From assembly GCA_037137555.1 (NCBI GenBank), contig JBAXKA010000001.1, positions 1,874-65,873 of the forward strand: a stretch of 64,000 nucleotides of DNA. Reading direction: 5' to 3'. A program made the position numbers and the translations under genes. Origin of the DNA: Candidatus Moraniibacteriota bacterium (lineage in GTDB: Bacteria; Patescibacteriota; Minisyncoccia; Moranbacterales; UBA2206). Below the pieces are notes generated by a model. It saw only the letters and a list, made by a program, of their open reading frames with translations. It did no database searches and had not been told where the DNA came from. Below, piece by piece: positions 18,906 through 37,891 of this stretch; within the stretch, counting starts at the first letter, position 1; every line of letters begins with the position of its first letter.

Positions 18906-18925
18906 ATTTTTTGGTGATTATTTTC
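18875..18925. repeat. 51-bp direct repeat, copy 1 (contains the authentic trmD start codon and first 11 codons plus 7 bp upstream)
   Basis: GAGGAAAAATTGTGATGATGTCGAAACGCATATTTTTTGGTGATTATTTTC is identical to 21690-21740. Confidence 0.9.
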
Positions 18926-20000
18926 CAGATTTAGTTCGATTACAATTCTTACAAAGCATCTGGCAATTTTTTGAAATTGTTTTTCCGCCTTCGTGCCAAG
19001 GTGTGATATGATCAGCTTCCATTTCTTCTGTTTCAAAATGTTCTTTGCATTTTATGCAAATGCCTTTTTGTTTTTCATAAATTTCCCTTTTTTGTTTATC
19101 TGCAAAAGCACGGATATTTAAATATTTTTCATTTCTTGTCAGAACATAAGGATAAATTCCAGATTTTTTTGTTACATCTTCATCTTGCATTAGTTTTGTG
19201 ATTTCTTCTTCTAATTTTTCAAAATCAACTTCTTGATCTTTGAATCGATTGTATAAATTCCCAAAAGAAACGCCTTTCATTTCTTTGCGATAATTGGGAA
19301 AAACAGCTTTAATCCAATTTATTATGCTTTGAAAATAGAGCCACAACTCATTGGCGTTTGGCTTGTGCTGATTTTCTGCCATATACTGCTCAATGTTTTC
19401 ATCACTAATCCACGAAATAGCCGTTTCTAAATATTCTTGACGAATACTAGAACCATTTAAATAATCACTTCCAATACCATAGGCAGGGCAACCAGATTTA
19501 CTAAAATATCTTTTGGCATCAGTTAACCAAGTGCCAGTATAAATTGCATTTCGCAATTCTTGATCAGTTAATTTTTCACCAGCGATATTAATTGTTTTAA
19601 ACCAATCTAGTTTTTCCTTATCATTTCCCTCGCAAAAATAAACCATAAGTTTATAATTCAAAATTTGCTCTTGCTCTATGTCGGTAAGATTGTGAAAAGA
19701 TAAGTTATTTAGAAAAAAATTGCCTACCACATATTCGCAAATACTAATTGTGCGTTGTTGTCCGTCCAAAACTTCAAAAGTTCCATCTTCATTTTTCACC
19801 CAATACATTACATTTAATGGAAAACTTTTTTGCACAGTTTCAATCACTAAATCTCTTTGCTTATCCTTATACACAAATTCTCTTTGATATTTTGGACGGA
19901 TATTTAGTTTTCCACTATAGCCAACCACACCTTCTTCATCATTATTAGCATACGCATCAACAATTTCTCTGATTGCGATTTCTTGTAGTTTAATTTTCAT
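18918..20000 (-). CDS. DUF262 (ParB/GmrSD N-terminal-like, DGQQR motif) domain fused to a C-terminal HNH endonuclease domain
   Basis: LDGQQRTISI motif. C-terminus CIKCKEHFETEEMEADHITPWHEGGKTISKNCQMLCKNCNRTKSGK is an HNH/zinc-finger nuclease motif. Confidence 0.75.
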   Translation of the reverse strand: MKIKLQEIAIREIVDAYANNDEEGVVGYSGKLNIRPKYQREFVYKDKQRDLVIETVQKSFPLNVMYWVKNEDGTFEVLDGQQRTISICEYVVGNFFLNNLSFHNLTDIEQEQILNYKLMVYFCEGNDKEKLDWFKTINIAGEKLTDQELRNAIYTGTWLTDAKRYFSKSGCPAYGIGSDYLNGSSIRQEYLETAISWISDENIEQYMAENQHKPNANELWLYFQSIINWIKAVFPNYRKEMKGVSFGNLYNRFKDQEVDFEKLEEEITKLMQDEDVTKKSGIYPYVLTRNEKYLNIRAFADKQKREIYEKQKGICIKCKEHFETEEMEADHITPWHEGGKTISKNCQMLCKNCNRTKSGK

Positions 20001-20011
20001 AAATAGTATAA

Positions 20012-20299
20012 TTAAAAGTTATTTTTTCTAGCCAATTCTGGTAATTTTTCAAATTGATTATGTATCAACGCTTCTTTTTTTTCTCTTCTCCAACCTTGCA
20101 CTTGCTTTTCTCGATAAAATGCTTCATCAATTCTAGCATATTCTTCAAAATAAACTAATTTAACTGGCAATCTCTTTTTTGTGTGATTTGCACCTTTTCC
20201 TGATTGATGTTGAGCCAAACGAAATTCCAAATCTTTTGTACTTCCAGTGTAGTAACTACCATCAGCACATTCTAAAATATACATGTATCCTTTACTCAT
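20012..20299 (-). CDS. GIY-YIG nuclease family protein (short, about 95 aa)
   Basis: [31 protein letters not shown]...QGWRREKK. Start set at MSKGYMYIL (20299). The longer 151-aa ORF reads through the repeat array and is an artefact. Confidence 0.75.
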
Positions 20300-20640
20300 A
20301 CCCGTTGGTTGAGCTTGTCGAAACCAATACTTACTAATTCGCAGGTGTTGCCTTCGATAAGCATAGACATTGTGTGTTGCCTTCGACGGGTGTGTTGCCT
20401 TCGACGGGCTCAGGCAACGGGAACGCATCCGTTGGTTGAGCTTGTCGAAACCAACTGTCGAAACCAATCACCTACTCGTTGGTTGAGCTTGTCGAAACCA
20501 ACACTCACACCAATTCGCTGAGTGTTGCCTTCGATAAACTCAGGCAACGGAGAAGGGTGTTGCCTTCGACGGGCTCAGGCAACGGGAACGCATTGTTGGT
20601 TGAGCTTGTCGAAACCAACTATCGAAACCAACACCCACCT
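20300..20640. repeat. array of about 10 hairpin repeat units of two related types in alternating orientation
   Basis: Type A is CGTTGGTTGAGCTTGTCGAAACCAAC (4 near-perfect copies). Type B is GTGTTGCCTTCGACGGGCTCAGGCAACGG (2 full copies plus 3 partial or variant copies). Both share the architecture stem-TCGAC-nn-GCTC-stem, read on opposite strands. Confidence 0.8.
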
Positions 20641-21601
20641 AAATTTTCTTGTTTTTAATTAAAATTCTAAAATATGGACACTTTCCATTTATGCTTAAAT
20701 CTTTTTCATCATCACCTTTGCGAAATTTTATAATCTCAAACTGCTCCGGATTATATTTATCTAAAAAAGTAATCGGCACGCCCATCGTTCCGGCATAATC
20801 CATTGGGATATCTTTTGTCTTATTAATATTTATTGCATCATAATTATCATATTTTGGATAATCTTCTGGATTATATTGTTTGTATAAAATTAAATCTTCG
20901 TGTCGTTTATTTATTTCTAAGTTAGTGAACCAGACAACACCAGAAACTCTAATCATTCCATCCTTATGATCTCCAGCAGTTGCATAATCTTCATAATGCG
21001 TATTAATAAAATGTGCCGCCCCACCATTAAACCCATAGCCTAGCCATAATTTATCATCCTTGATCAATTTAAATATTTCTTTATATGTTATAGCATTTTG
21101 ATGTCCAATAATAATAAACTTCTTATCATACTCAACCAATTGTGCCACATATTCCCGAAACAAAGAAAAAGGCGGATTAGTCACCACGATATCAGCTTGC
21201 TTTAAAAGTTCAATACATTCAGGACTTCTGAAATCACCATTCTTTTTTAAATGCTTGATACCAATTTCTGAAATATCTGGCACTCGATTTTCATTTTTAT
21301 CGCCAATGTATTCCAAATAAATCGCTTTTTCAGAATTATTTTGACTGAACAAATCGACACTTTGATTTTTATAACAAGTTGTGATTAATTTTTTGAGTCC
21401 TAGAAATTCAAAATTATAGGAAAAATAATGAAAAAAATTGCTCACTCTTGGATCATCGCAATTGCAAAAAACTGTTTTGCCCTTGAAATGATTTTTATAA
21501 TGAGCTAACTCTCTAGTGATATCCGCAAGTTGTGTATAAAACTCATCATTTTTGGCTTTGTTGGCTTTATGTAAATTTTGATTGGAAGATTTTCCTGCCA
21601 T
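20639..21601 (-). CDS. N6-adenine DNA methyltransferase, EcoRI-methylase-like family
   Basis: NPPF motif IV (IVVTNPPFSLFREY). N-terminus DEFYTQLADITRELAHYKNHFKGKTVFCNCDDP and C-terminal PMDYAGTMGVPITFLDKYNPEQFEI recall the M.EcoRI family, recalled from memory rather than searched. Confidence 0.6.
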   Translation of the reverse strand: MAGKSSNQNLHKANKAKNDEFYTQLADITRELAHYKNHFKGKTVFCNCDDPRVSNFFHYFSYNFEFLGLKKLITTCYKNQSVDLFSQNNSEKAIYLEYIGDKNENRVPDISEIGIKHLKKNGDFRSPECIELLKQADIVVTNPPFSLFREYVAQLVEYDKKFIIIGHQNAITYKEIFKLIKDDKLWLGYGFNGGAAHFINTHYEDYATAGDHKDGMIRVSGVVWFTNLEINKRHEDLILYKQYNPEDYPKYDNYDAININKTKDIPMDYAGTMGVPITFLDKYNPEQFEIIKFRKGDDEKDLSINGKCPYFRILIKNKKI

Positions 21602-21689: not shown

Positions 21690-21740
21690 GAGGAAAAATT
21701 GTGATGATGTCGAAACGCATATTTTTTGGTGATTATTTTC
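21690..21740. repeat. 51-bp direct repeat, copy 2 (a dead trmD 5' fragment: ATG then 10 matching codons, then divergence)
   Basis: Identical to 18875-18925. Overlaps the stop codon of the downstream ATPase gene. Confidence 0.9.
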
Positions 21741-23034
21741 TTAAAAACTCCTCAAAAAAGTTTTTTATTTCAATCTTTCCTCCTTCTACCTTTATCTCTT
21801 CCGAATAACCCATCGTAATAAGCTGAGCTTTTTTAAGTTTAAATTTTTTCATCGCTTCTTTCAATCCAGCGATTTCTCTCTCTCTGTTTCCCTCATTCAA
21901 CTCCCAACAAGCATTTATTGCTTTTTCAATTTTAACGCCTTTTCGCAAAAGAAAATCTATTTCATTTTTTCCTTTCCAATAAAAAATATCTTCGCCTTTT
22001 CGACGATATTCTAGAAAAACCATATTTTCAAAAATACGCCCCAAATTTTCACTGAATCGAAAAGAAACTGCTCGATAAATTCCCAAATCAATAACATACA
22101 CTTTCTCCGGATTAGCTTTTTGCTTCAAATAAGAATAGTCAAATAAATTTATTCCTTGAGTTAAAAAAACATCCTGAGCGTAAGTAAAAAATTTATTCGC
22201 CGTAGGTTGAGAAATAGCCAGAGTTTTTTCCGCCCGATAACCGGAAAAGCTAGTAGCAATACTAGTTACTAGGTTTATATAATACTCCTTAATCTTTTTA
22301 GTATCTCGCACATCATATCTCTGCACAATATCTTTTTCGATAATAGAAGAATAATAATCTTTTAAGAGTTGTAATTTATCTTGAACTTTCGAACTCAGAA
22401 CCACGCGTGGAAAACCACCATACCGCAAATATTCCATAAACTGATTTTTCAATGCCGGCAGTTCCCTTCCGCCAGAAAAATTAATTAGCTTTTGTTTATT
22501 TTTAAAAAGCAGAAACTCCCAAAAACTCAAAGGAAATATTTCATTAGTATAAATTCTTCCCGTAAGTGCTGTACCATATTCCTTGGAAAGTAACTTGGAG
22601 GACGAACCAGTTATATAGAATTTTATTCGTTCTTCCCGATCATGGAGACCACGAACAAATTTTTCCCATCCGTCTATATACTGAACTTCATCAAGCACAA
22701 TTAAAATTTTTCCTTCGGGACTGAATTTTTCCAAATAAGCATCCAGCAATTGAGCGAGAAACTCCAATTTCAGTTGTGGTGCGAAGGCTGGCTCTTCAAA
22801 ATTGATATAGAGAGTATTCTCCTTGGGAAGTCCCTGCTCAACAGCTTTTTTTAAAACCTGAAGTAAAATAGTAGATTTTCCTGATCGCCTAATTCCAGAA
22901 ACTATTGAAACTTCTTTGATATTCTTTTGTCGCAACAATTCTTTCACATAGCCAACCCGCTCTATGCCTGTTTCACGCACACCACCCCACAAATTCCAAT
23001 AAGCCAGAATTTCAATGATTTGCACTTTATTCAT
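21733..23034 (-). CDS. AAA ATPase (AAA_14/DUF4143-like, 'ATP-binding protein' family), copy 1 of 3
   Basis: Walker A GIRRSGKST, Walker B ILIVLDEVQY. Paralogous to 36581-37891 and, more distantly, 35226-36365. Confidence 0.75.
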   Translation of the reverse strand: MNKVQIIEILAYWNLWGGVRETGIERVGYVKELLRQKNIKEVSIVSGIRRSGKSTILLQVLKKAVEQGLPKENTLYINFEEPAFAPQLKLEFLAQLLDAYLEKFSPEGKILIVLDEVQYIDGWEKFVRGLHDREERIKFYITGSSSKLLSKEYGTALTGRIYTNEIFPLSFWEFLLFKNKQKLINFSGGRELPALKNQFMEYLRYGGFPRVVLSSKVQDKLQLLKDYYSSIIEKDIVQRYDVRDTKKIKEYYINLVTSIATSFSGYRAEKTLAISQPTANKFFTYAQDVFLTQGINLFDYSYLKQKANPEKVYVIDLGIYRAVSFRFSENLGRIFENMVFLEYRRKGEDIFYWKGKNEIDFLLRKGVKIEKAINACWELNEGNREREIAGLKEAMKKFKLKKAQLITMGYSEEIKVEGGKIEIKNFFEEFLRK

Positions 23035-29935: not shown

Positions 29936-31204
29936 TTAGATACTCAATAATTTTTGTAACTTATCGCTATTTTTATGCGGACCAATAATAGCTAAATTTA
30001 ATTTTTTGTTTTGAAAAATATCTTTGGCAACTACTAGAATATCCTCAATTTTCACTTGATCAATTCGTGCAAAAATTTCCGCTCTTTTTAAGATTTCTTT
30101 TCGTGCCAATTCTTGACCGATAAAAAACATCGCTACTTCGTCTGAGGCTTCCATGCCCATCACCATTTTGCCTTTAATATAATTCTTAGCTTTTTGCAAT
30201 TCTTTTTCTGTCACTTTTTCCGTGGCCATTTTCTGATATTCAGCCAGAATAGTTTTCAAAGCCAGTGCCAGATTTTTATGTTCCACTCCAGCTTGTGTAG
30301 CGAGATAACCACATTCTTCAAATGATTCCGTGTTTGTTCTGACATAATAGGCCAAGCCTCTTTTTTCTCGCACTTCCATAAATAATCGACTGGACATATT
30401 ACCACCTAAAATAATAGAAAGCAAGGAAAGTGCAAAACGCTTTTCGCTATATAAATCATACGCTCGCACTCCAAGCACAAGTTGCGTTTGATCGGTTTTT
30501 TTAAATTTAATTTTTAGGGCCGGCGTTTTTTGTTTTTCCACGACTTTTTTAATTTCTGGTTTTTTGCCGTCTGACATTTCCTGAAAATATTTTTTAACTT
30601 GCTCAACGATTTTTTTTTCGTCAAACTTCCCTGCCACACAAATTACTGTGTCATTTGCCAAATAAAACCGCTTGAGATATTTCAAAAAATCTGCCCGCTT
30701 AAAATTGTTAATTGTTTTTTTATAACCAATAATATCTCTCCCCAAATTATTTTCCGGATAAAGCAAGTTTTCAAAAACATCACCCACACTACGCATCGGC
30801 ATATCTTCATACATATTCAATTCTTGAATAATTGTTCCTCGTTCTTTTTCTACTTCTGTTTCTTCGATTTTAGAATGCAAATACATATCCGCCACCACAT
30901 CCAGTGCCACATTAATATGATTAGCATCGACTTTTACATAATAACCAGTTGAATCCTTGGAAGTAAACGCATTAAACTCTCCACCAATCGCATCAAGTTC
31001 TTCAGAAATAGCCAAAGCTGTTGGTCGTTTTTCCGTGCCCTTAAAAAACATATGTTCAATAAAATGTGAAAGTCCCGCCTCTTTTTCATTTTCATAGCGA
31101 CTACCAACACCAACCATTGCCACCACCGTTACTGTTTGCGTTTCAGCCATTGGCACTGTGATAATTCGCAGACCATTTTTTAGTTCTAGTTTTTTGTAAT
31201 TCAT
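29936..31204 (-). CDS. M16-family (pitrilysin/insulinase-like) zinc peptidase
   Basis: Inverted zincin motif HFIEHMFFKGT (HxxEH), about 420 aa. Confidence 0.8.
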   Translation of the reverse strand: MNYKKLELKNGLRIITVPMAETQTVTVVAMVGVGSRYENEKEAGLSHFIEHMFFKGTEKRPTALAISEELDAIGGEFNAFTSKDSTGYYVKVDANHINVALDVVADMYLHSKIEETEVEKERGTIIQELNMYEDMPMRSVGDVFENLLYPENNLGRDIIGYKKTINNFKRADFLKYLKRFYLANDTVICVAGKFDEKKIVEQVKKYFQEMSDGKKPEIKKVVEKQKTPALKIKFKKTDQTQLVLGVRAYDLYSEKRFALSLLSIILGGNMSSRLFMEVREKRGLAYYVRTNTESFEECGYLATQAGVEHKNLALALKTILAEYQKMATEKVTEKELQKAKNYIKGKMVMGMEASDEVAMFFIGQELARKEILKRAEIFARIDQVKIEDILVVAKDIFQNKKLNLAIIGPHKNSDKLQKLLSI

Positions 31205-31263
31205 AAGCTGTAATTTTTTTATAATTAAATTTTTTCAATAAACTATTTCATGTATCCGCAAAA

Positions 31264-32034
31264 TTATGCCAAAATCGTATTTATAATTTGCAAAATATCA
31301 TGTTTATGATTAACAGACAAGGTGCCAAACATTTTTAGCATTTCTAAAAAAACCTTGATATTGTTTTTTGTTATTTCAAAATGGGCGATTTCTTTTGTTT
31401 TGGCAGTTCGTCCAATTAAATTGATTTCCGTTTTTAGCTCTGTAATGGGAAAACATAAATATAACATCGGTTGCGTGCCGACTGCATATTGTTTTTCAGT
31501 AATTTTTATCTCGGTAACTATTTCATATCCATTGAATTTGTGAATTAAAAGAGGATATTTGACCTGAGTATACTCAAAATCAAATCCATTTATATTTCTT
31601 GCTACTGGATGACTACGATCAATTTGCAATTCAGAATTATTATCAATTAAATCATTGTTTTGTATCGAATTAAGATAATTAATAACATTCTCTAGATCTT
31701 TTCTAGATATAATACCCCACTTAAAAAAATACCAAATGTATTCCGATAATTCATAAAGTGCTTTAATCTTTCCATTTGCTCCAATAAATTCCGTGTCTGG
31801 CAATGATGATTCTGCAAGCTTTTCAACTTCCTTTTTAACAACATCATAACCGATTTGCCATTCGACATAATTACTCAAAACAAACCCATCGCGTCTAGTT
31901 GCAACTGGCGTTCCATACTCATTTAAAATTGAACGATTTTTAACGCGAATTTTCCCACTAACAGTAGTTAATAAAATTGGCACTTCAATCTTATGTTCTT
32001 GTTCTTTAATTAAAATTTTTGGCATATTTTTCAC
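31264..32034 (-). CDS. hypothetical protein; candidate restriction endonuclease partner of the upstream methyltransferase
   Basis: No recognisable family. Overlaps the 3' end of the methyltransferase gene by 29 bp on the same strand. PD...E-like residues around PDTEF...YELSEY are weak. Position only. Confidence 0.3.
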   Translation of the reverse strand: MKNMPKILIKEQEHKIEVPILLTTVSGKIRVKNRSILNEYGTPVATRRDGFVLSNYVEWQIGYDVVKKEVEKLAESSLPDTEFIGANGKIKALYELSEYIWYFFKWGIISRKDLENVINYLNSIQNNDLIDNNSELQIDRSHPVARNINGFDFEYTQVKYPLLIHKFNGYEIVTEIKITEKQYAVGTQPMLYLCFPITELKTEINLIGRTAKTKEIAHFEITKNNIKVFLEMLKMFGTLSVNHKHDILQIINTILA

Positions 32035-33172
32035 CTAATTTACTTCCTAATAATTCCCTAAAATAATTATCTATTTTTAGCTTAGCATTAGGAATTTCTC
32101 TAAATTTAAATTTATTTTTTAAAACTGGATTTGTGTGAACACTCTGTGCAATAAAACATTCCTTTATATCATTGAATTTTTCATTATCAATTATTATATC
32201 ACAATTTCCAATAAAATATGGCATTTTATCTGCGTATTGCTTAAAGATATCAATATAACAATAATAGGGAAGTTTTTCCATTAATATATAAACTGTATTA
32301 TAAGTATCAGAATCAATAAAAGTGCGATTGCGCTTAAGTGCGTTTATATCTCTCAATGTCCAAAATTTTGCGACTGGTTTATCGTTTTTATTTAAGTATT
32401 TTTTGTTCGGATATTTTTGAACATAATTAACTATGGTATCAAAATCTTTTAATCGAAAAATACCATCATCTTTTATTTTAAATTTATAATTTTGAATATA
32501 ATCATATGTCATTCCGTCCTGATCCTTTTTATAGAAAGCTACCAAGATAGGAAAGGCCATGCCTCGAGAGGTGCTGGAAAACTCATGACTACTTATAATC
32601 ATTCCGTCAATCAATTTATAATTTCTAGAAAATTTTGAAAGTAACGAAAAATTCGCTTTTTTAATAAGATATGACAACGGATGCAAAACACAAACATAAT
32701 CCGCTCGAAGCTTATTATAAGACAGTAAAAATGACATTCCCAAATCGCGAGTCTTTATATCAAAATCAGTTTTATCTTGAAGTGAACCATCTTTTATGGA
32801 ATTACGGATTATAGACATAGTATCATTGTATGGCGGATTACCAATAACTATAAGTTTTTCATCATTTTCAATTGTTAGATTTTTACGGCAAACATTCAAG
32901 AGTGAATTTTGGCAAATATAATCGATAGTATCAATTGTTTTCTTCGCTTCAAAAATAGCATCTTGATCTATATCTGCACCAACCAATCTTTTTGCAATAT
33001 TTTTTTTTACCAAAAATGAACCATACCCGCAAGACGAATCTAGAATTGTAAAATCTTTTATATCCTTAATATTCTTTTGCAAAATAAGATAGGCCAAATC
33101 AACGATAGTCTCTGGCGTATAATAAGAGCCAAGATTGACAGTGTCTATATGATTTAAATGTTTTTGATCCAT
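32006..33172 (-). CDS. N6-adenine DNA methyltransferase, gamma class (Eco57I/TaqI-like order X-I-IV)
   Basis: Motif X YYTP, motif I LDSSCGYGSFL, motif IV IVIGNPPYN, followed by a long target-recognition region. Confidence 0.7.
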   Translation of the reverse strand: MDQKHLNHIDTVNLGSYYTPETIVDLAYLILQKNIKDIKDFTILDSSCGYGSFLVKKNIAKRLVGADIDQDAIFEAKKTIDTIDYICQNSLLNVCRKNLTIENDEKLIVIGNPPYNDTMSIIRNSIKDGSLQDKTDFDIKTRDLGMSFLLSYNKLRADYVCVLHPLSYLIKKANFSLLSKFSRNYKLIDGMIISSHEFSSTSRGMAFPILVAFYKKDQDGMTYDYIQNYKFKIKDDGIFRLKDFDTIVNYVQKYPNKKYLNKNDKPVAKFWTLRDINALKRNRTFIDSDTYNTVYILMEKLPYYCYIDIFKQYADKMPYFIGNCDIIIDNEKFNDIKECFIAQSVHTNPVLKNKFKFREIPNAKLKIDNYFRELLGSKLGEKYAKNFN

Positions 33173-33183
33173 ACTTATAATTT

Positions 33184-34200
33184 TTATTTATTTTTATTCC
33201 GACTATACCGAATCAATCCGGCAAACGGAATTATTTCTAAACCTTTTTTTTCCAGCTCATCCAAAAATAAATTCATGCCGATTGAATCTGATGAAATGTG
33301 TCCGGCAATCACTACATTGATGTGTGCCGCTTCTGCTGCTTTTCTGTGATCTTCACTTTGATGCATGCCAATAATCGTTCCCACTCCAGCATTCGCCATG
33401 GCTTGATAAATTTCCTTTGAACCTTCCGTGCCTCCAGTAATTTCTGAAGCGACAATTTTTCCAGCCCGATTTTTTTTATCTCCGGAAAAAAGCACCGGTC
33501 CCGCTCCTTGCTTTTTAGCTTCTTGATATTCCGGCACTCGTTCCAGAATTTCCAAAACTTCTCCCACATAACGGGGATTTTCTTTTGCAATTTGTTTTGT
33601 GATAAACTGGGCCACTAAATTATCCGCTGGTGTATGAATATTGATTAAATTTATTTTCAAAAGTCGTGCCGCATCTACCGTCACAAAATGATTAACCGGA
33701 TTTAAGCCCCGTGCCACTTCCGAAATTCTTTTGTGAATCATTTTTTCAGCAATATTAACTGGCACGCCAATTTTTTCCATCAAATCAATTTGCAAATCCA
33801 TCACCGCATCCAGACCAGAAAGTGCCAAGCCCACTGGATGATGATTGATTACCAAATCCACACCAAGCTCTCGTGCCAAAATTAAACCGCCGACAGAGAT
33901 GTCGATGCCCGCCAAGATTTTCTTGATTTTTTTTGCACCGTTGTCATTATGAATCCGCGAATCAGCATACGGATTAGTTAGCCTCTCTTTGTCAAAATAT
34001 TTTTGTTCTTCTTTTGGAAGTTTATTATATTCTGTTTTTTTATGTGCCAAATAATCTTCAATTTCTTTTTTAGTACGAAAATCATTTTTAATTCCCAGCT
34101 CAATGGCTAAATTATAGATTTCTTGGATTAGCATAATATTTTTTATAAAATTTAACTTCAGCTTAATAGAAATTCTAACATAAACCAAAGAACAAAGCAA
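33184..34200 (-). CDS. Nif3-family dinuclear metal centre protein (GTP cyclohydrolase 1 type 2 homologue)
   Basis: LVINHHPVGL and VVIAGHISSDSIGMN motifs with an inserted PII-like middle domain. Confidence 0.6.
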   Translation of the reverse strand: MLCSLVYVRISIKLKLNFIKNIMLIQEIYNLAIELGIKNDFRTKKEIEDYLAHKKTEYNKLPKEEQKYFDKERLTNPYADSRIHNDNGAKKIKKILAGIDISVGGLILARELGVDLVINHHPVGLALSGLDAVMDLQIDLMEKIGVPVNIAEKMIHKRISEVARGLNPVNHFVTVDAARLLKINLINIHTPADNLVAQFITKQIAKENPRYVGEVLEILERVPEYQEAKKQGAGPVLFSGDKKNRAGKIVASEITGGTEGSKEIYQAMANAGVGTIIGMHQSEDHRKAAEAAHINVVIAGHISSDSIGMNLFLDELEKKGLEIIPFAGLIRYSRNKNK

Positions 34201-34204
34201 AATT

Positions 34205-34243
34205 AAAAAAGAGCAGGCAATCAGCCCACTCTTTTTTGTTTTT
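34205..34243 (-). terminator. terminator-like A-run/hairpin/T-run after HepT-1
   Basis: AAAAAAGAG...CTCTTTTTT inverted arms. The same architecture recurs at 37993-38030. Confidence 0.4.
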
Positions 34244-34675
34244 TTATTTTTTAGTTACAAATTCTAAAATATAATGGCAATACTGATTATAGTCACGGAG
34301 ACAATCGCCGATTGAATGATACACTTTTTCTTTATCCACATTATCATATTCATGAACTAACACATTTCTCGTTCCCGCACTTTTGGCAATTTCTTTGGCA
34401 AAATCATAAGGATAAACTTTTAATTCAGCTAAGATTAAAAAAGTCTCCGTATAGGCCAATGGAGTTCTGGATGTCTTTTCTGCCAATTCATAAACAATGT
34501 GCTGATTAATATCAATCGCACGATTAACTATTCTTTCTAGAAATCTCTCGACTGCCGCCAATTTCACTGGGTCACTAGCCACTTCATCAAATGAATATCT
34601 GGCAAACGGCAATAGATTTTGCAATTCGTCTTCAATTAGTGTTATTTTTCTTTGAATAAAAGTTTTATTTATCAT
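34244..34675 (-). CDS. hepT: HepT-like HEPN toxin (DUF86), pair 1
   Basis: HEPN Rx4HxY motif RNVLVHEY. Start overlaps or abuts the MntA gene. Confidence 0.75.
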   Translation of the reverse strand: MINKTFIQRKITLIEDELQNLLPFARYSFDEVASDPVKLAAVERFLERIVNRAIDINQHIVYELAEKTSRTPLAYTETFLILAELKVYPYDFAKEIAKSAGTRNVLVHEYDNVDKEKVYHSIGDCLRDYNQYCHYILEFVTKK

Positions 34676-34681
34676 AATGAG

Positions 34682-35110
34682 TTAGGCTTGAAGTGCTTGA
34701 TTTATTATCATATATTTCCTTTGAGACATTTTCGCTTCAAAATCAAAAAGTGGTTTCGCATCAACAAAATAGCGATAGGATCGCGCACGCAATTCATCAA
34801 ATTCATTGCGCTCGCCATAAAGCATTTTTCCTTGGAATAAGACCTCGTACGCCAATAATGGATTGGCCTTGTTCAAATTCGTCAAATCAATTAAGCCATC
34901 TGAAACATTCAATACGCGAGATAAAAAAGATAACACGGCACTATAGTTATCCATGCTTTCCCCAATATTTTTCTCTTCTGAAGTTAAGATAGCAATATCA
35001 TAATCACTATTTTCTTGCGCTTTTCCGCTGGCACGCGAACCAAAAAGAATGACCATTTTTATGCCCAATTCTGATGCCTCTTTCTTAAATTTTTTATTAT
35101 CAATTTCCAT
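34682..35110 (-). CDS. mntA: MntA-like minimal nucleotidyltransferase antitoxin, pair 1
   Basis: GSxxxG...DxD motif LFGSRASGKAQENSDYDIAI. Start set at MEIDNKK (35110). The longer ORF begins in the 5' UTR. Confidence 0.75.
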   Translation of the reverse strand: MEIDNKKFKKEASELGIKMVILFGSRASGKAQENSDYDIAILTSEEKNIGESMDNYSAVLSFLSRVLNVSDGLIDLTNLNKANPLLAYEVLFQGKMLYGERNEFDELRARSYRYFVDAKPLFDFEAKMSQRKYMIINQALQA

Positions 35111-35225: not shown

Positions 35226-36365
35226 TTAAGCCACAAAATCATGATAATTATCGCGATTTATTATCGTAAATTCTGATTGCGGATAGCTCTCCATAAATTT
35301 CTTCGGATAAGGCGCATGTGTTTTTTTCCACTTGAATTCATAGGCATGATATTTTCCACCACTATCTTCGATATAATCAATCTCACTACCAGTATAGGCT
35401 CGCCAAAAATAACTCGTCGCTATTACTTCTTGATATTTTATTTTCTTCATCCTTTCGACTACTAATAAATTCTCAAACAGTGCGCCTTGATCATTGCGAT
35501 CATTCATTGCATTAAGGTTATCAATGAGAATATTTCTAATACCAAGATCATAAAAATATATTTTATCCTTTTTGGTGATTTCTTTGCGTGGATTTTTTGA
35601 CAAGGCTGACAGGCGAAAAATAACAAAAGACTTTTCCAATAAATCAACATACCTGTTCACCGTCTCACTGCTCAGCTCCAGACTATCGGCCAATTCATTA
35701 ATAGAAACTTCCTGTCCGATCTGAAAGGCCAGCAACTTCAGCAATTTATATATTTTATCAGATTTCTTAATCGATTCCAGTTCCAAAATATCCTTATAGA
35801 GATACGAGGTAGCAATTTCTTCTAAAAGTTTCTTTTTATTTTTCAAATTCTCCATAGTGAAAACTTCCGGATATGCTCCATGAATTAAAAAATTATCGAG
35901 ATAGCCACCGAGTTCAAATTCATTATGATAACTGGATAATTCCAAAAATGATAATGGATAGAGAGTATATGTCCAAACTCTGCCAGTTAGTGGTTCTTTT
36001 ATTTTATTTGCCAATTCAAAGGAAGATGAGCCAGTCACAATTATTTTCAAATCCTTCATTCCATCAGCCAAAATTTTCAAATTAATTCCAATATTTTCAA
36101 TCCTTTGCGCCTCATCAATAAATAACAATTCGTAACCGCTTACAAGTGATTTCAGTCTAGAAAGATCACGACTACTCAACACATCGTGGTATTTTTTCTC
36201 ATCAGCATTGATTTTTAGGGTTTTCAAATTAAGCCTGCTAATTATTTGATTCACTAGCGTCGTTTTTCCCACCTGCCTGGCGCCATAAACAATCACAATT
36301 TTATTGCTTTGAGTTAATTTGCCTATTATTGGCTCCAAAATGGCTCTTTCAATTATTTCAACCAT
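35226..36365 (-). CDS. AAA ATPase (AAA_14/DUF4143-like), copy 2 of 3
   Basis: Walker A GARQVGKTT, Walker B LLFIDEAQ. Confidence 0.75.
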   Translation of the reverse strand: MVEIIERAILEPIIGKLTQSNKIVIVYGARQVGKTTLVNQIISRLNLKTLKINADEKKYHDVLSSRDLSRLKSLVSGYELLFIDEAQRIENIGINLKILADGMKDLKIIVTGSSSFELANKIKEPLTGRVWTYTLYPLSFLELSSYHNEFELGGYLDNFLIHGAYPEVFTMENLKNKKKLLEEIATSYLYKDILELESIKKSDKIYKLLKLLAFQIGQEVSINELADSLELSSETVNRYVDLLEKSFVIFRLSALSKNPRKEITKKDKIYFYDLGIRNILIDNLNAMNDRNDQGALFENLLVVERMKKIKYQEVIATSYFWRAYTGSEIDYIEDSGGKYHAYEFKWKKTHAPYPKKFMESYPQSEFTIINRDNYHDFVA

Positions 36366-36580: not shown

Positions 36581-37891
36581 TTATTGCAGTAACCAACGCC
36601 AAACAGGCATAACAACGATCTCTCCACTTTCCATTCCAACTGAATCTTCCTCGCTTTCAGTTAGAATTAATGCTTTTTTCAGACCTAGCTCGCGCATAGC
36701 CGATACCGTGGCATTAATTTCTCGCTCGCGAGTTTCAAATTTTTCTAGCGATACGCAAACTTGAATTATGGCTTCTATTTTCTGTTTTTTTCTGATCAAA
36801 AAATCAACTTCGAGATTATTTTTTGTTTTATAATAATATACTTCTTCCTCTTTTTTTAATAAGTGCAAAAAAACCAAGTTTTCCAACAATTTTCCACGAT
36901 CTTCATTAAAGCTAAAACTTATAGCATTACGCAATCCCAAATCTGACGCATACACTTTGCGCGGATTAACAGCCTGCTCCTTCAAAGAATAGGCAAATTT
37001 TGGCAGGAAATAAAGCAGGAAAGGCGTTGTCAAATATTCGGAAAAACGCTCGACTGTTGAAAGGGGGATTTTTAAAAAATCCTTCACTTTATTGTAAGAC
37101 ATTAGAGCGGAGATGTTAGTCAAATAAAATTTTGTCAAAATCCTCAATTTCTCAGATTGCCTTATCTTAAACCGACTCAGCAAATCTCTGTTTATAATGT
37201 CCTCGAAATAATTGCGCAGAATCGTGTTTTTATCCTCTGCTGTTTTCAAAAAAACTGTTTTTGGCATACCGCCAAATTTCAAATATTCCCCAAATAGCTC
37301 CTTTATTTTTGCCTTTTGCCTTACAATACTAAGTTGATCAGAAATTTCGATTTTATTAAAAATCAAAAATTCCGCAAAAGTCAACGGATAGATTTTTAAA
37401 GTCAGTTGCCGTCCGGTCAAAACCGTGCTCAACTCAGAATTGAGTAAATGAGAATTGCTTCCGGATACAAAAATCGACGCCACTTTTCTTTCATGTAAAC
37501 TATTCACGAATTTTTCCCAGCCAGGCACATTTTGAATTTCATCCAACAGAATGAGCGGCTTTCCTCCCGGTTTCAAATTTTGCAAATATGTTTCATATAT
37601 CTCACCCAAAAGCTCAGGGGAATATTCGCCCAAGAATCTCGCATCCTCAAAATTGACATACAAAATATCTTGAGGCAAGAATTTTTTTTCTTCCAGCATT
37701 TTTTTGGCAAACTGCAACATCAAAGTTGATTTTCCGCTTCTTCTGATTCCAATAAGCGACACTACTAAGCCAATATTAAAATATCGCTCCATTTTATCAA
37801 CATATTCCTTTCTTTCTATGCCAGTTTCGATCTTTTTTTGCCAAAAATTCCAATCATTGAGAATTTCCAACAACTTTTCATTATTTATCAT
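36581..37891 (-). CDS. AAA ATPase (AAA_14/DUF4143-like), copy 3 of 3
   Basis: Walker A GIRRSGKST, Walker B LILLDEIQ. N-terminus resembles copy 1. Confidence 0.75.
   Translation of the reverse strand: MINNEKLLEILNDWNFWQKKIETGIERKEYVDKMERYFNIGLVVSLIGIRRSGKSTLMLQFAKKMLEEKKFLPQDILYVNFEDARFLGEYSPELLGEIYETYLQNLKPGGKPLILLDEIQNVPGWEKFVNSLHERKVASIFVSGSNSHLLNSELSTVLTGRQLTLKIYPLTFAEFLIFNKIEISDQLSIVRQKAKIKELFGEYLKFGGMPKTVFLKTAEDKNTILRNYFEDIINRDLLSRFKIRQSEKLRILTKFYLTNISALMSYNKVKDFLKIPLSTVERFSEYLTTPFLLYFLPKFAYSLKEQAVNPRKVYASDLGLRNAISFSFNEDRGKLLENLVFLHLLKKEEEVYYYKTKNNLEVDFLIRKKQKIEAIIQVCVSLEKFETREREINATVSAMRELGLKKALILTESEEDSVGMESGEIVVMPVWRWLLQ

What the first reader, a model, noticed from the sequence alone, without database searches (positions are those of the whole stretch)
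31264..33172. Compact type II R-M candidate: gamma-class N6A methyltransferase with an overlapping unknown 256-aa ORF
The methyltransferase has motif X (YYTP), motif I (LDSSCGYGSFL) and motif IV (NPPY) in gamma-class order, with a long C-terminal target-recognition region. The downstream ORF overlaps its 3' end by 29 bp on the same strand and has no recognisable family. This matches the expected behaviour of a fast-evolving restriction endonuclease. The pair is embedded between housekeeping genes (M16 peptidase, Nif3), not in an island.
Basis: partly seen in the sequence, partly recalled or inferred. Interest (0 to 1): 0.5.

Follow-up and report, generated by a model that had tools for sequence, protein, structure and literature searches.

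The report
PabI-type base-excision restriction-modification gene pair
The two overlapping genes are a real restriction-modification pair in a Moranbacteria genome. The "unknown" second gene belongs to a known, already annotated family (R.PabI/R.CcoLI) that most likely removes the adenine from unmethylated GTAC sites instead of cutting like a classical nuclease, so this is an ordinary new member of an unusual family.

Summary
Both ORFs exist on the minus strand: a gamma-class N6-adenine methyltransferase (32006-33172) and a downstream overlapping ORF.

The downstream ORF is not familyless.
- It matches Pfam PF09522 (R.Pab1) at E=9e-44 and crystallised R.CcoLI at E=4e-57.
- The catalytic Tyr/His/Asp, the AP-lyase Lys and all ten GTAC-reading residues are conserved.
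- NCBI already annotates the identical protein as [quoted passage not shown].
- Its real start is probably the ATG at 32025 (253 aa, 20-bp overlap, Shine-Dalgarno GGTGA).

The methyltransferase is 46% identical (E=2e-103) to the one upstream of a Campylobacter R.CcoLI ortholog.

The pair is a horizontally acquired two-gene cassette.
- About 40 related Moranbacteria have Nif3 and M16 abutting with no cassette.
- The same cassette, with homology limited to the two genes, sits in unrelated contexts in other bacterial contigs (one labelled Falkowbacteria).
- Both genes are under strong purifying selection (dN/dS 0.05-0.11).

Verdict: a new, uncharacterised member of the PabI-family restriction-glycosylase R-M systems, most likely GTAC/GTm6AC. 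The R-M call is right. "No family", "nuclease fold" and "not an island" are wrong or misleading. Low interest.

The parts
32006..33172 (-). M gene: 388-aa gamma-class N6-adenine DNA methyltransferase, a bacterial M.PabI/M.CcoLI homolog. Predicted product GTm6AC.
   Evidence: ORF. Pfam N6_Mtase 2.7e-6 above cut-off. PADLOC MTase_II PDLC03275 at 1.8e-83, near full length. 46% identity, E=2e-103, to the MTase immediately upstream of a C. jejuni R.CcoLI ortholog. 49% identity to a Campylobacter conjugative-plasmid MTase that is followed by an R.Pab1 gene. dN/dS 0.05-0.06.
31264..32025 (-). R gene: 253-aa PabI-family (HALFPIPE) restriction DNA glycosylase/AP lyase. The maximal ORF extends to the GTG at 32034 (256 aa).
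   Evidence: PF09522 at 8.8e-44. PDB 7cfa R.CcoLI at 4.2e-57 and R.PabI at 5e-16. AF2 pLDDT 90.7; Foldseek TM 0.81/0.88 to 7cfa_A, with only R.CcoLI/R.PabI hits at E<=1e-3. Catalytic, AP-lyase and base-reading residues conserved. Identical protein named R.Pab1 family RE in NCBI. dN/dS 0.06-0.11.
32031..32036 (-). Shine-Dalgarno-like AGGTGA for R, 5 nt upstream of the ATG at 32025 and inside the 3' end of M.
   Evidence: Read directly. Purine-rich SD, spacing and ATG conserved in cassettes L001, L003 and L007.
32006..32025 (-). 20-bp overlap of the M 3' end with the R 5' end. Inferred to allow translational coupling.
   Evidence: The same 20-bp overlap appears in gene calls of L001, L003-L008 and L094.
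31205..33183 (-). Inserted segment (about 1.98 kb) between the Nif3 stop codon and the M16 start codon. Homology to other cassettes spans 31262-33180 only.
   Evidence: Empty sites in relatives: Nif3 stop, then 4-11 bp, then M16 ATG. blastn homology of 79-82% is limited to the two genes. GC 0.288 against 0.349. No flanking direct or inverted repeats.
33184..34134 (-). Upstream flank: Nif3/DUF34-family gene. Its stop codon lies 11 bp before the M start.
29936..31204 (-). Downstream flank: M16 peptidase gene. Its start lies 59 bp after the R stop.
34205..34237 (-). Strong terminator-like hairpin upstream of Nif3. No terminator-like site was found at the Nif3/M or R/M16 junctions on the minus strand (two weak internal minus-strand matches aside), suggesting Nif3-M-R-M16 co-transcription (operon insertion).
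   Evidence: Consensus scan only, so this is an inference.

Best explanation
This is a PabI-family type II restriction-modification cassette of the bacterial M-then-R arrangement. It was acquired horizontally by a Candidatus Moraniibacteriota (Patescibacteria) genome and inserted precisely between the Nif3 and M16-peptidase genes.

Inferred mechanism, from characterised homologs:
- The methyltransferase converts the adenine of 5'-GTAC-3' to N6-methyladenine on host DNA.
- The R protein is a metal-independent HALFPIPE homodimer. On unmethylated GTAC it flips out the adenine and hydrolyses its N-glycosidic bond (Tyr60, His240, Asp243).
- It then cleaves the abasic site by beta-elimination through Lys88, helped by Asp61 and Asn84. 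The resulting double-strand breaks have ends that are hard to religate.
- R translation is probably coupled to M translation through the 20-bp overlap with an internal Shine-Dalgarno. Both genes are probably transcribed with the host Nif3-M16 operon.

Shown here: family membership, predicted fold, residue conservation, M-R linkage, the insertion, and purifying selection.

Inferred, not shown: GTAC specificity, m6A product, glycosylase and lyase activities, translational coupling, and co-transcription.
For: R protein family and fold:
- PF09522 at E=8.8e-44 and PADLOC REase_II.
- R.CcoLI (7cfa) at E=4.2e-57 over residues 14-255 of the 256-aa ORF, and R.PabI at 5e-16.
- AF2 model with pLDDT 90.7 and pTM 0.86. 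Foldseek against the PDB gives only R.CcoLI and R.PabI chains at E<=1e-3, with TM 0.81/0.88 and rmsd 2.3 A to 7cfa_A.

Residue conservation, using the R.CcoLI paper PMC7806768 and the alignments:
- Catalytic Y52/H222/D225 correspond to Y60/H240/D243 here.
- AP-lyase K71 with D53 and N67 corresponds to K88/D61/N84.
- Base readers K17, R19, E47, Q49, I50, Q158, Q164, M166, Y168 and F215 correspond to K25, R27, E55, Q57, I58, Q179, Q185, M187, Y189 and F233. All are identical.

M protein:
- 46% identity, E=2e-103, to the MTase upstream of a C. jejuni R.CcoLI ortholog.
- 49% identity to a Campylobacter plasmid MTase that is followed by an R.Pab1 gene.
- The M-upstream-of-R, same-strand order is the arrangement of the bacterial lineage (PMC4615327).
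- M and R are linked in all 8 contexts examined.

GTAC and methylation in characterised members:
- M.PabI makes m6A in GTAC, and this blocks base excision (PMC4357717).
- Seven cassettes totalling 13.7 kb contain 1 GTAC against about 33 expected from base composition.

Insertion and selection:
- Empty Nif3-M16 junctions in about 40 relatives, and no M or R in any of 80 loci.
- Homology to other cassettes is limited to the two genes.
- Cassette GC is lower than the host GC in four contexts.
- dN/dS is 0.05-0.11.
- The same locus was assembled independently in ENA and Logan data.
Against: - No biochemical or methylome data exist for this or any Patescibacterial member.
- Identity to the nearest characterised enzyme is only about 45-48%.
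- There is a clade-specific insertion of about 9 residues (KKEVEKLAESS region, residues about 64-75) in the beta-sheet next to the active site. This could alter lyase activity.
- GTAC under-representation in the window (33 observed, 47 Markov-expected, 202 by base composition) is no stronger than in close relatives that lack the cassette at this site. It therefore does not show that this copy is active.
- No promoter signal above chance was found.
Confidence: 0.88

Rival explanations
1. One reading: a classical type II R-M in which the 256-aa protein is a fast-evolving PD-(D/E)xK (or HNH/GIY-YIG/PLD) phosphodiesterase with no detectable relatives.
For: Only the operon architecture, an MTase with an overlapping downstream ORF. 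This is equally explained by the PabI model.
Against: The protein has a strong Pfam, PDB and PADLOC family assignment. The confident AF2 model matches no nuclease fold, only HALFPIPE glycosylases. The protein is highly conserved, with dN/dS 0.06-0.11 and over a hundred 90%-identity clusters at 81% identity or more.
Confidence: 0.02
2. A PabI-family R-M with a recognition sequence other than GTAC, or a glycosylase-only enzyme lacking efficient AP-lyase activity, because of the clade-specific insertion next to the active site.
For: About 45-48% identity to R.CcoLI. A 9-residue insertion between Y60/D61 and N84/K88 that is absent in Campylobacter and Helicobacter proteins. The C-terminal ~40 residues of M do not align well with the Campylobacter MTase.
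Against: All ten residues predicted to read G, T, A and C in R.CcoLI are identical, and the lyase Lys/Asp/Asn triad is retained. All characterised members (PabI, HpyAXII, CcoLI) recognise GTAC. The cassettes themselves avoid GTAC: 1 observed against about 33 expected. M aligns at 46% identity through the TRD region to residue 382.
Confidence: 0.08
3. A decayed or domesticated remnant: the genes are retained but no longer act in restriction, for example an orphan methylase with an inactive R, or an R repurposed as a repair glycosylase.
For: R.PabI homologs are frequently disrupted in Helicobacter and Campylobacter (PMC4615327). No activity data exist.
Against: Both ORFs are full length with every catalytic residue. 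dN/dS is 0.05-0.11 for both genes. The cassette is a recent lineage-specific gain, not an ancestral gene. M and R always travel together.
Confidence: 0.04

Closest known systems
CcoLI R-M system of Campylobacter coli (R.CcoLI, PDB 7CFA; Miyazono et al. 2021, PMC7806768)
   Same: - Full-length homology at E=4e-57 and about 45-48% identity.
- Same predicted HALFPIPE fold (TM 0.81/0.88).
- Same catalytic Tyr/His/Asp, AP-lyase Lys71 with Asp53/Asn67, and all ten predicted GTAC-reading residues.
- M gene upstream on the same strand. M is 46% identical to the MTase next to the C. jejuni ortholog.
   Different: - Host is a Patescibacterium rather than a Campylobacterota member.
- R is 253 aa against 237 aa, with a longer N-terminus and a ~9-residue insertion in the active-site-adjacent beta-sheet.
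- M is 388 aa against 355 aa.
- The M/R overlap is 20 bp with an internal Shine-Dalgarno, against a 4-bp overlap.
- No biochemistry is available.
HpyAXII R-M system of Helicobacter pylori (R.HpyAXII; GTAC, limits transformation)
   Same: Same bacterial PabI lineage and M-then-R order. It behaves as a mobile selfish cassette that can insert into operons (PMC4615327; PMC4357717).
   Different: The HpyAXII sequences were not compared directly here. The relationship is inferred through Pfam PF09522 and the published phylogeny.
PabI R-M system of Pyrococcus abyssi (R.PabI, PDB 2DVY/3WAZ; M.PabI)
   Same: The founding member. It has the same fold (TM 0.70-0.84), the same catalytic Y68/H211/D214, and K154 conserved. 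It recognises GTAC and is a metal-independent adenine glycosylase inhibited by m6A.
   Different: - Only about 25% identity.
- The archaeal genes are tail-to-tail, and the archaeal M may not be orthologous to the bacterial M.
- R.PabI has weak AP-lyase activity and lacks the inserted beta-sheet that positions the lyase lysine.
Classical GTAC type II systems (e.g. RsaI/CviQI, with M.CviQI making GTm6AC)
   Same: Same predicted recognition sequence and protective methylation. M.CviQI methylation blocks R.PabI.
   Different: Those restriction enzymes are phosphodiesterases and are unrelated in fold. This statement rests on my own knowledge and was not tested here.

Membership tests
PabI-family restriction DNA glycosylase (HALFPIPE superfamily, Pfam PF09522) | Significant match to the family profile, above the curated threshold | tested here: met
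   PF09522 at 148.9 bits against a cut-off of 25, E=8.8e-44. phmmer to R.CcoLI at 4.2e-57 and to R.PabI at 5e-16.
PabI-family restriction DNA glycosylase (HALFPIPE superfamily, Pfam PF09522) | HALFPIPE fold | tested here: met
   This rests on a predicted structure only. AF2 pLDDT 90.7 and pTM 0.86. The top 16 Foldseek PDB hits are all R.CcoLI or R.PabI chains, and the next hit has E=0.15.
PabI-family restriction DNA glycosylase (HALFPIPE superfamily, Pfam PF09522) | Catalytic Tyr/His/Asp (R.PabI Y68/H211/D214; R.CcoLI Y52/H222/D225) | tested here: met
   Y60, H240 and D243 (253-aa numbering) align and are invariant in 24 homologs.
PabI-family restriction DNA glycosylase (HALFPIPE superfamily, Pfam PF09522) | Mesophile-type AP-lyase lysine (R.CcoLI K71) with D53 and N67 | tested here: met
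   K88 and N84 are invariant and D61 is at least 90% conserved.
PabI-family restriction DNA glycosylase (HALFPIPE superfamily, Pfam PF09522) | GTAC base-reading residues (R.CcoLI K17, R19, E47, Q49, I50, Q158, Q164, M166, Y168, F215) | tested here: met
   10 of 10 are identical in the window protein.
PabI-family restriction DNA glycosylase (HALFPIPE superfamily, Pfam PF09522) | Adjacent M.PabI-homolog methyltransferase; in bacteria, M upstream on the same strand | tested here: met
PabI-family restriction DNA glycosylase (HALFPIPE superfamily, Pfam PF09522) | Sequence-specific, methyl-inhibited adenine excision at GTAC, without a divalent metal | not testable with these tools
   This needs an enzyme assay. 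The only indirect support is that the cassettes avoid GTAC.
Bacterial M.PabI-homolog gamma-class N6-adenine methyltransferase | Gamma motif order (X, I, then IV NPPY) with a C-terminal target-recognition domain | tested here: met
   GSYYTP at 15-20, DSSCGYGSF at 45-53 and NPPY at 112-115, followed by about 270 residues. Pfam N6_Mtase spans 13-272.
Bacterial M.PabI-homolog gamma-class N6-adenine methyltransferase | Homology to methyltransferases paired with characterised bacterial R.PabI homologs | tested here: met
   46% identity, E=2e-103, to the MTase upstream of the C. jejuni protein that is 98% identical to R.CcoLI. PADLOC PDLC03275 at 1.8e-83.
Bacterial M.PabI-homolog gamma-class N6-adenine methyltransferase | Produces GTm6AC | not testable with these tools
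   Needs methylome data.
PD-(D/E)xK or other classical nuclease-fold type II restriction endonuclease | Nuclease fold or catalytic motif | tested here: not met
   No nuclease family in Pfam, NCBIfam or PADLOC apart from the R.PabI-type model. No nuclease structure among the Foldseek hits.
Mobile R-M cassette / genomic insertion | Present/absent polymorphism at an otherwise conserved locus, and the same unit in unrelated contexts | tested here: met
   Empty Nif3-M16 junction in about 40 relatives. The cassette alone is shared with L001, L003 and L007.
Mobile R-M cassette / genomic insertion | Associated mobility genes, target-site duplication or terminal repeats | tested here: not met
   No flanking repeats. 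No integrase or transposase next to it.

The most novel reading that the evidence does not exclude
The Patescibacterial copies form a large clade of PabI-type restriction glycosylases that the held literature does not describe. The top 120 90%-identity clusters listed for this query are all at 81% identity or more to it, and the named ones carry labels such as Moran-, Falkow-, Yanofsky- and Buchananbacteria. The clade carries its own ~9-residue insertion beside the active site. It spreads as a bare two-gene unit that lands exactly in intergenic junctions of housekeeping operons, with no repeats or mobility genes. If the insertion changes catalysis or specificity, or if the insertion mechanism is new, this would be a new variant and not just another member.
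Probability: 0.15. Interest if true: 0.4.

Novelty: new member of a known kind. Interest (0 to 1): 0.15.

Why it matters
Restriction glycosylases are the one known class of restriction enzymes that remove a base instead of hydrolysing the backbone. In the literature held here they are described essentially from Pyrococcus and from Helicobacter/Campylobacter.

This locus shows that an intact, selected copy also sits in ultra-small Patescibacteria and moves between them. That is of modest interest for the ecology of defence and DNA uptake in these epibionts.

For the genome scan, the lesson is practical. The element is already correctly named by NCBI, so it is not a discovery. A "no nuclease fold" test would also wrongly reject this kind of restriction enzyme.

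Tried and rejected
1. **GTAC avoidance as evidence that this copy is active.** GTAC is 0.16x of the base-composition expectation in the window. It is 0.19x in close relatives that lack the cassette at this site, and 0.70 against 0.81 by the order-2 Markov expectation. This is a lineage trait, so it is not copy-specific evidence.
2. **Cross-domain (bacteria to DPANN archaea) transfer.** This was suggested by an NCBI label 'Candidatus Pacearchaeota archaeon' on homolog P0113. That contig (L003) encodes a bacterial GroEL (598 bits against a 582 cut-off) and HtpX. The label is unreliable and the idea was dropped.
3. **Own promoter or terminator for the cassette.** Promoter-like sites are no more frequent than in shuffles, and no terminator lies at the cassette borders.
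4. **Target-site duplication or terminal inverted repeats at the insertion borders.** None were found, only short AT-rich chance matches.
5. **NCBIfam.** It gave nothing for R and only sub-threshold hits for M.
6. **PDB sequence search with M.** It gave only generic Rossmann methyltransferases at E>0.01.
7. **Literature search for PabI in Patescibacteria.** Nothing relevant was found.
Full report
**Observation**

The minus strand carries two ORFs:
- a 388-aa ORF at 32006-33172;
- a downstream ORF at 31264-32034, which is 256 aa from a GTG and overlaps the first by 29 bp.

A long C-terminal region follows them.

The second ORF most likely starts at the ATG at 32025, giving 253 aa and a 20-bp overlap.
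- The GTG lies inside an AGGTGA Shine-Dalgarno 5 nt upstream of that ATG.
- Public gene calls for the identical sequence and for all close homologs are 253 aa.
- The SD-ATG-overlap junction is conserved in other copies.

The same locus was assembled independently in ENA and Logan data, so it is not an assembly artefact.

**What the second ORF is**

It is not familyless.
- It hits Pfam PF09522 (R.Pab1 restriction endonuclease) at E=8.8e-44, 148.9 bits against a gathering score of 25.
- It hits a PADLOC type II REase model at 6.7e-19.
- It matches PDB 7CFA (R.CcoLI of Campylobacter coli) at E=4.2e-57 over almost its whole length, and R.PabI at 5e-16.
- The identical protein is in NCBI as 'MAG: R.Pab1 family restriction endonuclease [Candidatus Moraniibacteriota bacterium]'.

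An AlphaFold2 model built on 24 homologs is confident, with pLDDT 90.7 and pTM 0.86. Foldseek against the PDB returns only R.CcoLI (TM 0.81/0.88, rmsd 2.3 A) and R.PabI chains at E<=1e-3. The next hit has E=0.15. The fold is therefore the HALFPIPE fold of restriction DNA glycosylases, not a PD-(D/E)xK or other nuclease fold.

**Functional residues**

The R.CcoLI structure paper (PMC7806768) defines three sets of residues. The alignments map them onto the window protein (253-aa numbering):

| Role | R.CcoLI | Window protein |
|---|---|---|
| Catalytic (R.PabI Y68/H211/D214) | Y52, H222, D225 | Y60, H240, D243 |
| AP-lyase lysine and helpers | K71, D53, N67 | K88, D61, N84 |
| Predicted readers of G, T, A, C in GTAC | K17, R19, E47, Q49, I50, Q158, Q164, M166, Y168, F215 | K25, R27, E55, Q57, I58, Q179, Q185, M187, Y189, F233 |

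Every one of these residues is identical, and most are invariant across 24 diverse homologs. The one notable difference is an insertion of about 9 residues (roughly residues 64-75) in the beta-sheet that flanks the active site. Homologs labelled Clostridiales, Firmicutes and Rickettsiales have insertions at the same position.

**The methyltransferase**

- Pfam N6_Mtase is weak but above threshold.
- A PADLOC type II MTase model matches nearly end to end at 1.8e-83.
- To test whether it is a bacterial M.PabI homolog, I retrieved a C. jejuni chromosomal locus whose R protein is 98% identical to R.CcoLI. The gene immediately upstream encodes a 355-aa protein that is 46% identical to the window MTase (E=2e-103), aligned through residue 382.
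- Campylobacter conjugative plasmids carry a 49%-identical MTase followed by an annotated R.Pab1 family gene.
- Kojima and Kobayashi (PMC4615327) describe exactly this arrangement for the bacterial lineage: a gamma-type M upstream of R on the same strand.

**Linkage and mobility**

In all eight distinct contexts examined, a homolog of M lies upstream of R. These contexts are the window, L001 (Falkowbacteria), L003-6, L007-8, L089, L090, L091 and L093.

Evidence that the pair moves as a unit:
- Nucleotide similarity between the window and three other Patescibacteria-type cassettes is 79-82%. It stops within a few bases of the M start and the R stop (window 31262-33180), and the flanking genes are unrelated.
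- Eighty loci from related genomes were recovered with the M16 peptidase as bait, and none contains M or R. In about 40 of them Nif3, M16 and the AI-2E-type permease are adjacent. In the closest relatives only 4-11 bp separate the Nif3 stop from the M16 start.
- The pair is therefore a ~1.98-kb insertion into a conserved junction.
- Cassette GC (0.28-0.31) is below host GC in all four contexts.
- No target duplication, terminal repeats or mobility genes were found.
- No terminator-like site separates Nif3, M, R and M16, whereas a strong one lies just upstream of Nif3. This fits the 'operon insertion' pattern already described for this family, but it remains an inference.

**Selection**

dN/dS against three other cassettes is 0.05-0.06 for M and 0.06-0.11 for R, with dS of 0.8-2.1. 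Both genes are maintained by purifying selection. The R protein is not fast-evolving within this clade.

**Specificity**

All characterised members (PabI, HpyAXII, CcoLI) act on GTAC. M.PabI makes GTm6AC, which blocks base excision.

- Seven cassettes, including the Campylobacter ones, contain 1 GTAC in 13.7 kb against about 33 expected from base composition.
- The window has 33 GTAC against 202 expected from base composition and 47 from an order-2 Markov model.
- The same depletion is seen in close relatives that lack the cassette at this site. It reflects lineage history, not this copy.

GTAC specificity is therefore a well-supported inference, not a demonstration.

**Comparison and novelty**

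This is a member of the PabI family of type II R-M systems (restriction glycosylases). It is closest to the Campylobacter CcoLI system.
- The family is small: 347 clusters at 50% identity in 1.84 billion representatives.
- The literature held here describes it from Pyrococcus and the Campylobacterales, with a few scattered taxa. No paper linking it to Patescibacteria was found.
- Metagenome data nevertheless hold many such copies. All 120 clusters listed for this query are at least 81% identical to it, and the named ones carry Patescibacterial or unclassified-bacterium labels apart from the mislabelled P0113.
- A suggested archaeal (Pacearchaeota) host for one homolog does not hold up, because that contig encodes bacterial GroEL and HtpX.

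**Verdict**

This is a correct R-M call reached for partly wrong reasons. The element is a new, uncharacterised but automatically annotated member of a known family, so its interest is low.

Noticed in passing
window 1-64000: ACGT is almost absent from the window: 2 sites against 72 expected (order-2 Markov) and 202 by base composition, z about -10. Related Moranbacteria loci show only mild depletion (0.66-0.78 of the Markov expectation). This suggests strong, genome-specific selection by an ACGT-specific R-M system. The responsible system was not identified.
   Followed up: partly
window 18918-21601 (-): A second type II R-M candidate:
- an EcoRI_methylase-family MTase at 20639-21601 (PF13651 at 3e-138; PADLOC MTase_II at 4e-133);
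- a DUF262/GmrSD_N + HNH protein at 18918-20000 (PADLOC REase_II at 6e-142);
- a 151-aa GIY-YIG ORF (20012-20467) between them.

The DUF262-HNH protein has 57-64%-identical homologs on plasmids of many phyla, in several records next to an EcoRI-family MTase. Specificity is unknown. GAATTC occurs 12 times in the window, against about 22 expected from base composition by my own arithmetic, so it is only mildly depleted.
   Followed up: partly
window 34244-35110 (-): A HepT-like RNase (PF01934) and an MNT nucleotidyltransferase (PF18765/PF01909) form a toxin-antitoxin pair immediately upstream of Nif3. The pair is absent from the corresponding flank in all 80 related loci.
   Followed up: partly
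window 21733-23034, 35226-36365, 36581-37891 (all -): Three AAA_14 + DUF4143 ATPases. The first two were scanned against PADLOC and match the candidate defence family PDC-S01 at up to 2.7e-146; the third was scanned against Pfam only. With the TA pair and two R-M systems, this makes the window rich in accessory and defence-type genes.
   Followed up: no
L014:2951-3259; L012:5924-6000; L013:3118-3191: The same Nif3-M16 junction holds other small inserts in some relatives: 309 bp with a ~100-codon ORF in L014, and 74-77 bp in L012 and L013. The junction seems to be a recurrent insertion or variable spot.
   Followed up: no
L003-L006 (homolog P0113): The NCBI name for this R homolog is 'Candidatus Pacearchaeota archaeon', but the contig encodes bacterial GroEL (TIGR02348, 598 bits) and HtpX. 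The archaeal label is probably a binning or taxonomy error. The cassette there sits beside an MvaI/BcnI-type REase, a LexA-fused MTase, and ParE and HEPN/NTase TA genes.
   Followed up: yes
L091:2059-4765: In a contig whose R homolog is labelled Clostridiales, the system has a variant layout: a 69-aa HTH_26 protein (possible controller), then M (47% identical), then an extra 199-aa ORF of unknown family, then R (56% identical).
   Followed up: no
L009-L050 vs L051-L088: GTAC is about 0.19x of the base-composition expectation in the nearer Moranbacteria relatives, but 0.71x in the more distant ones. This suggests clade-level historical exposure to GTAC-specific restriction.
   Followed up: no
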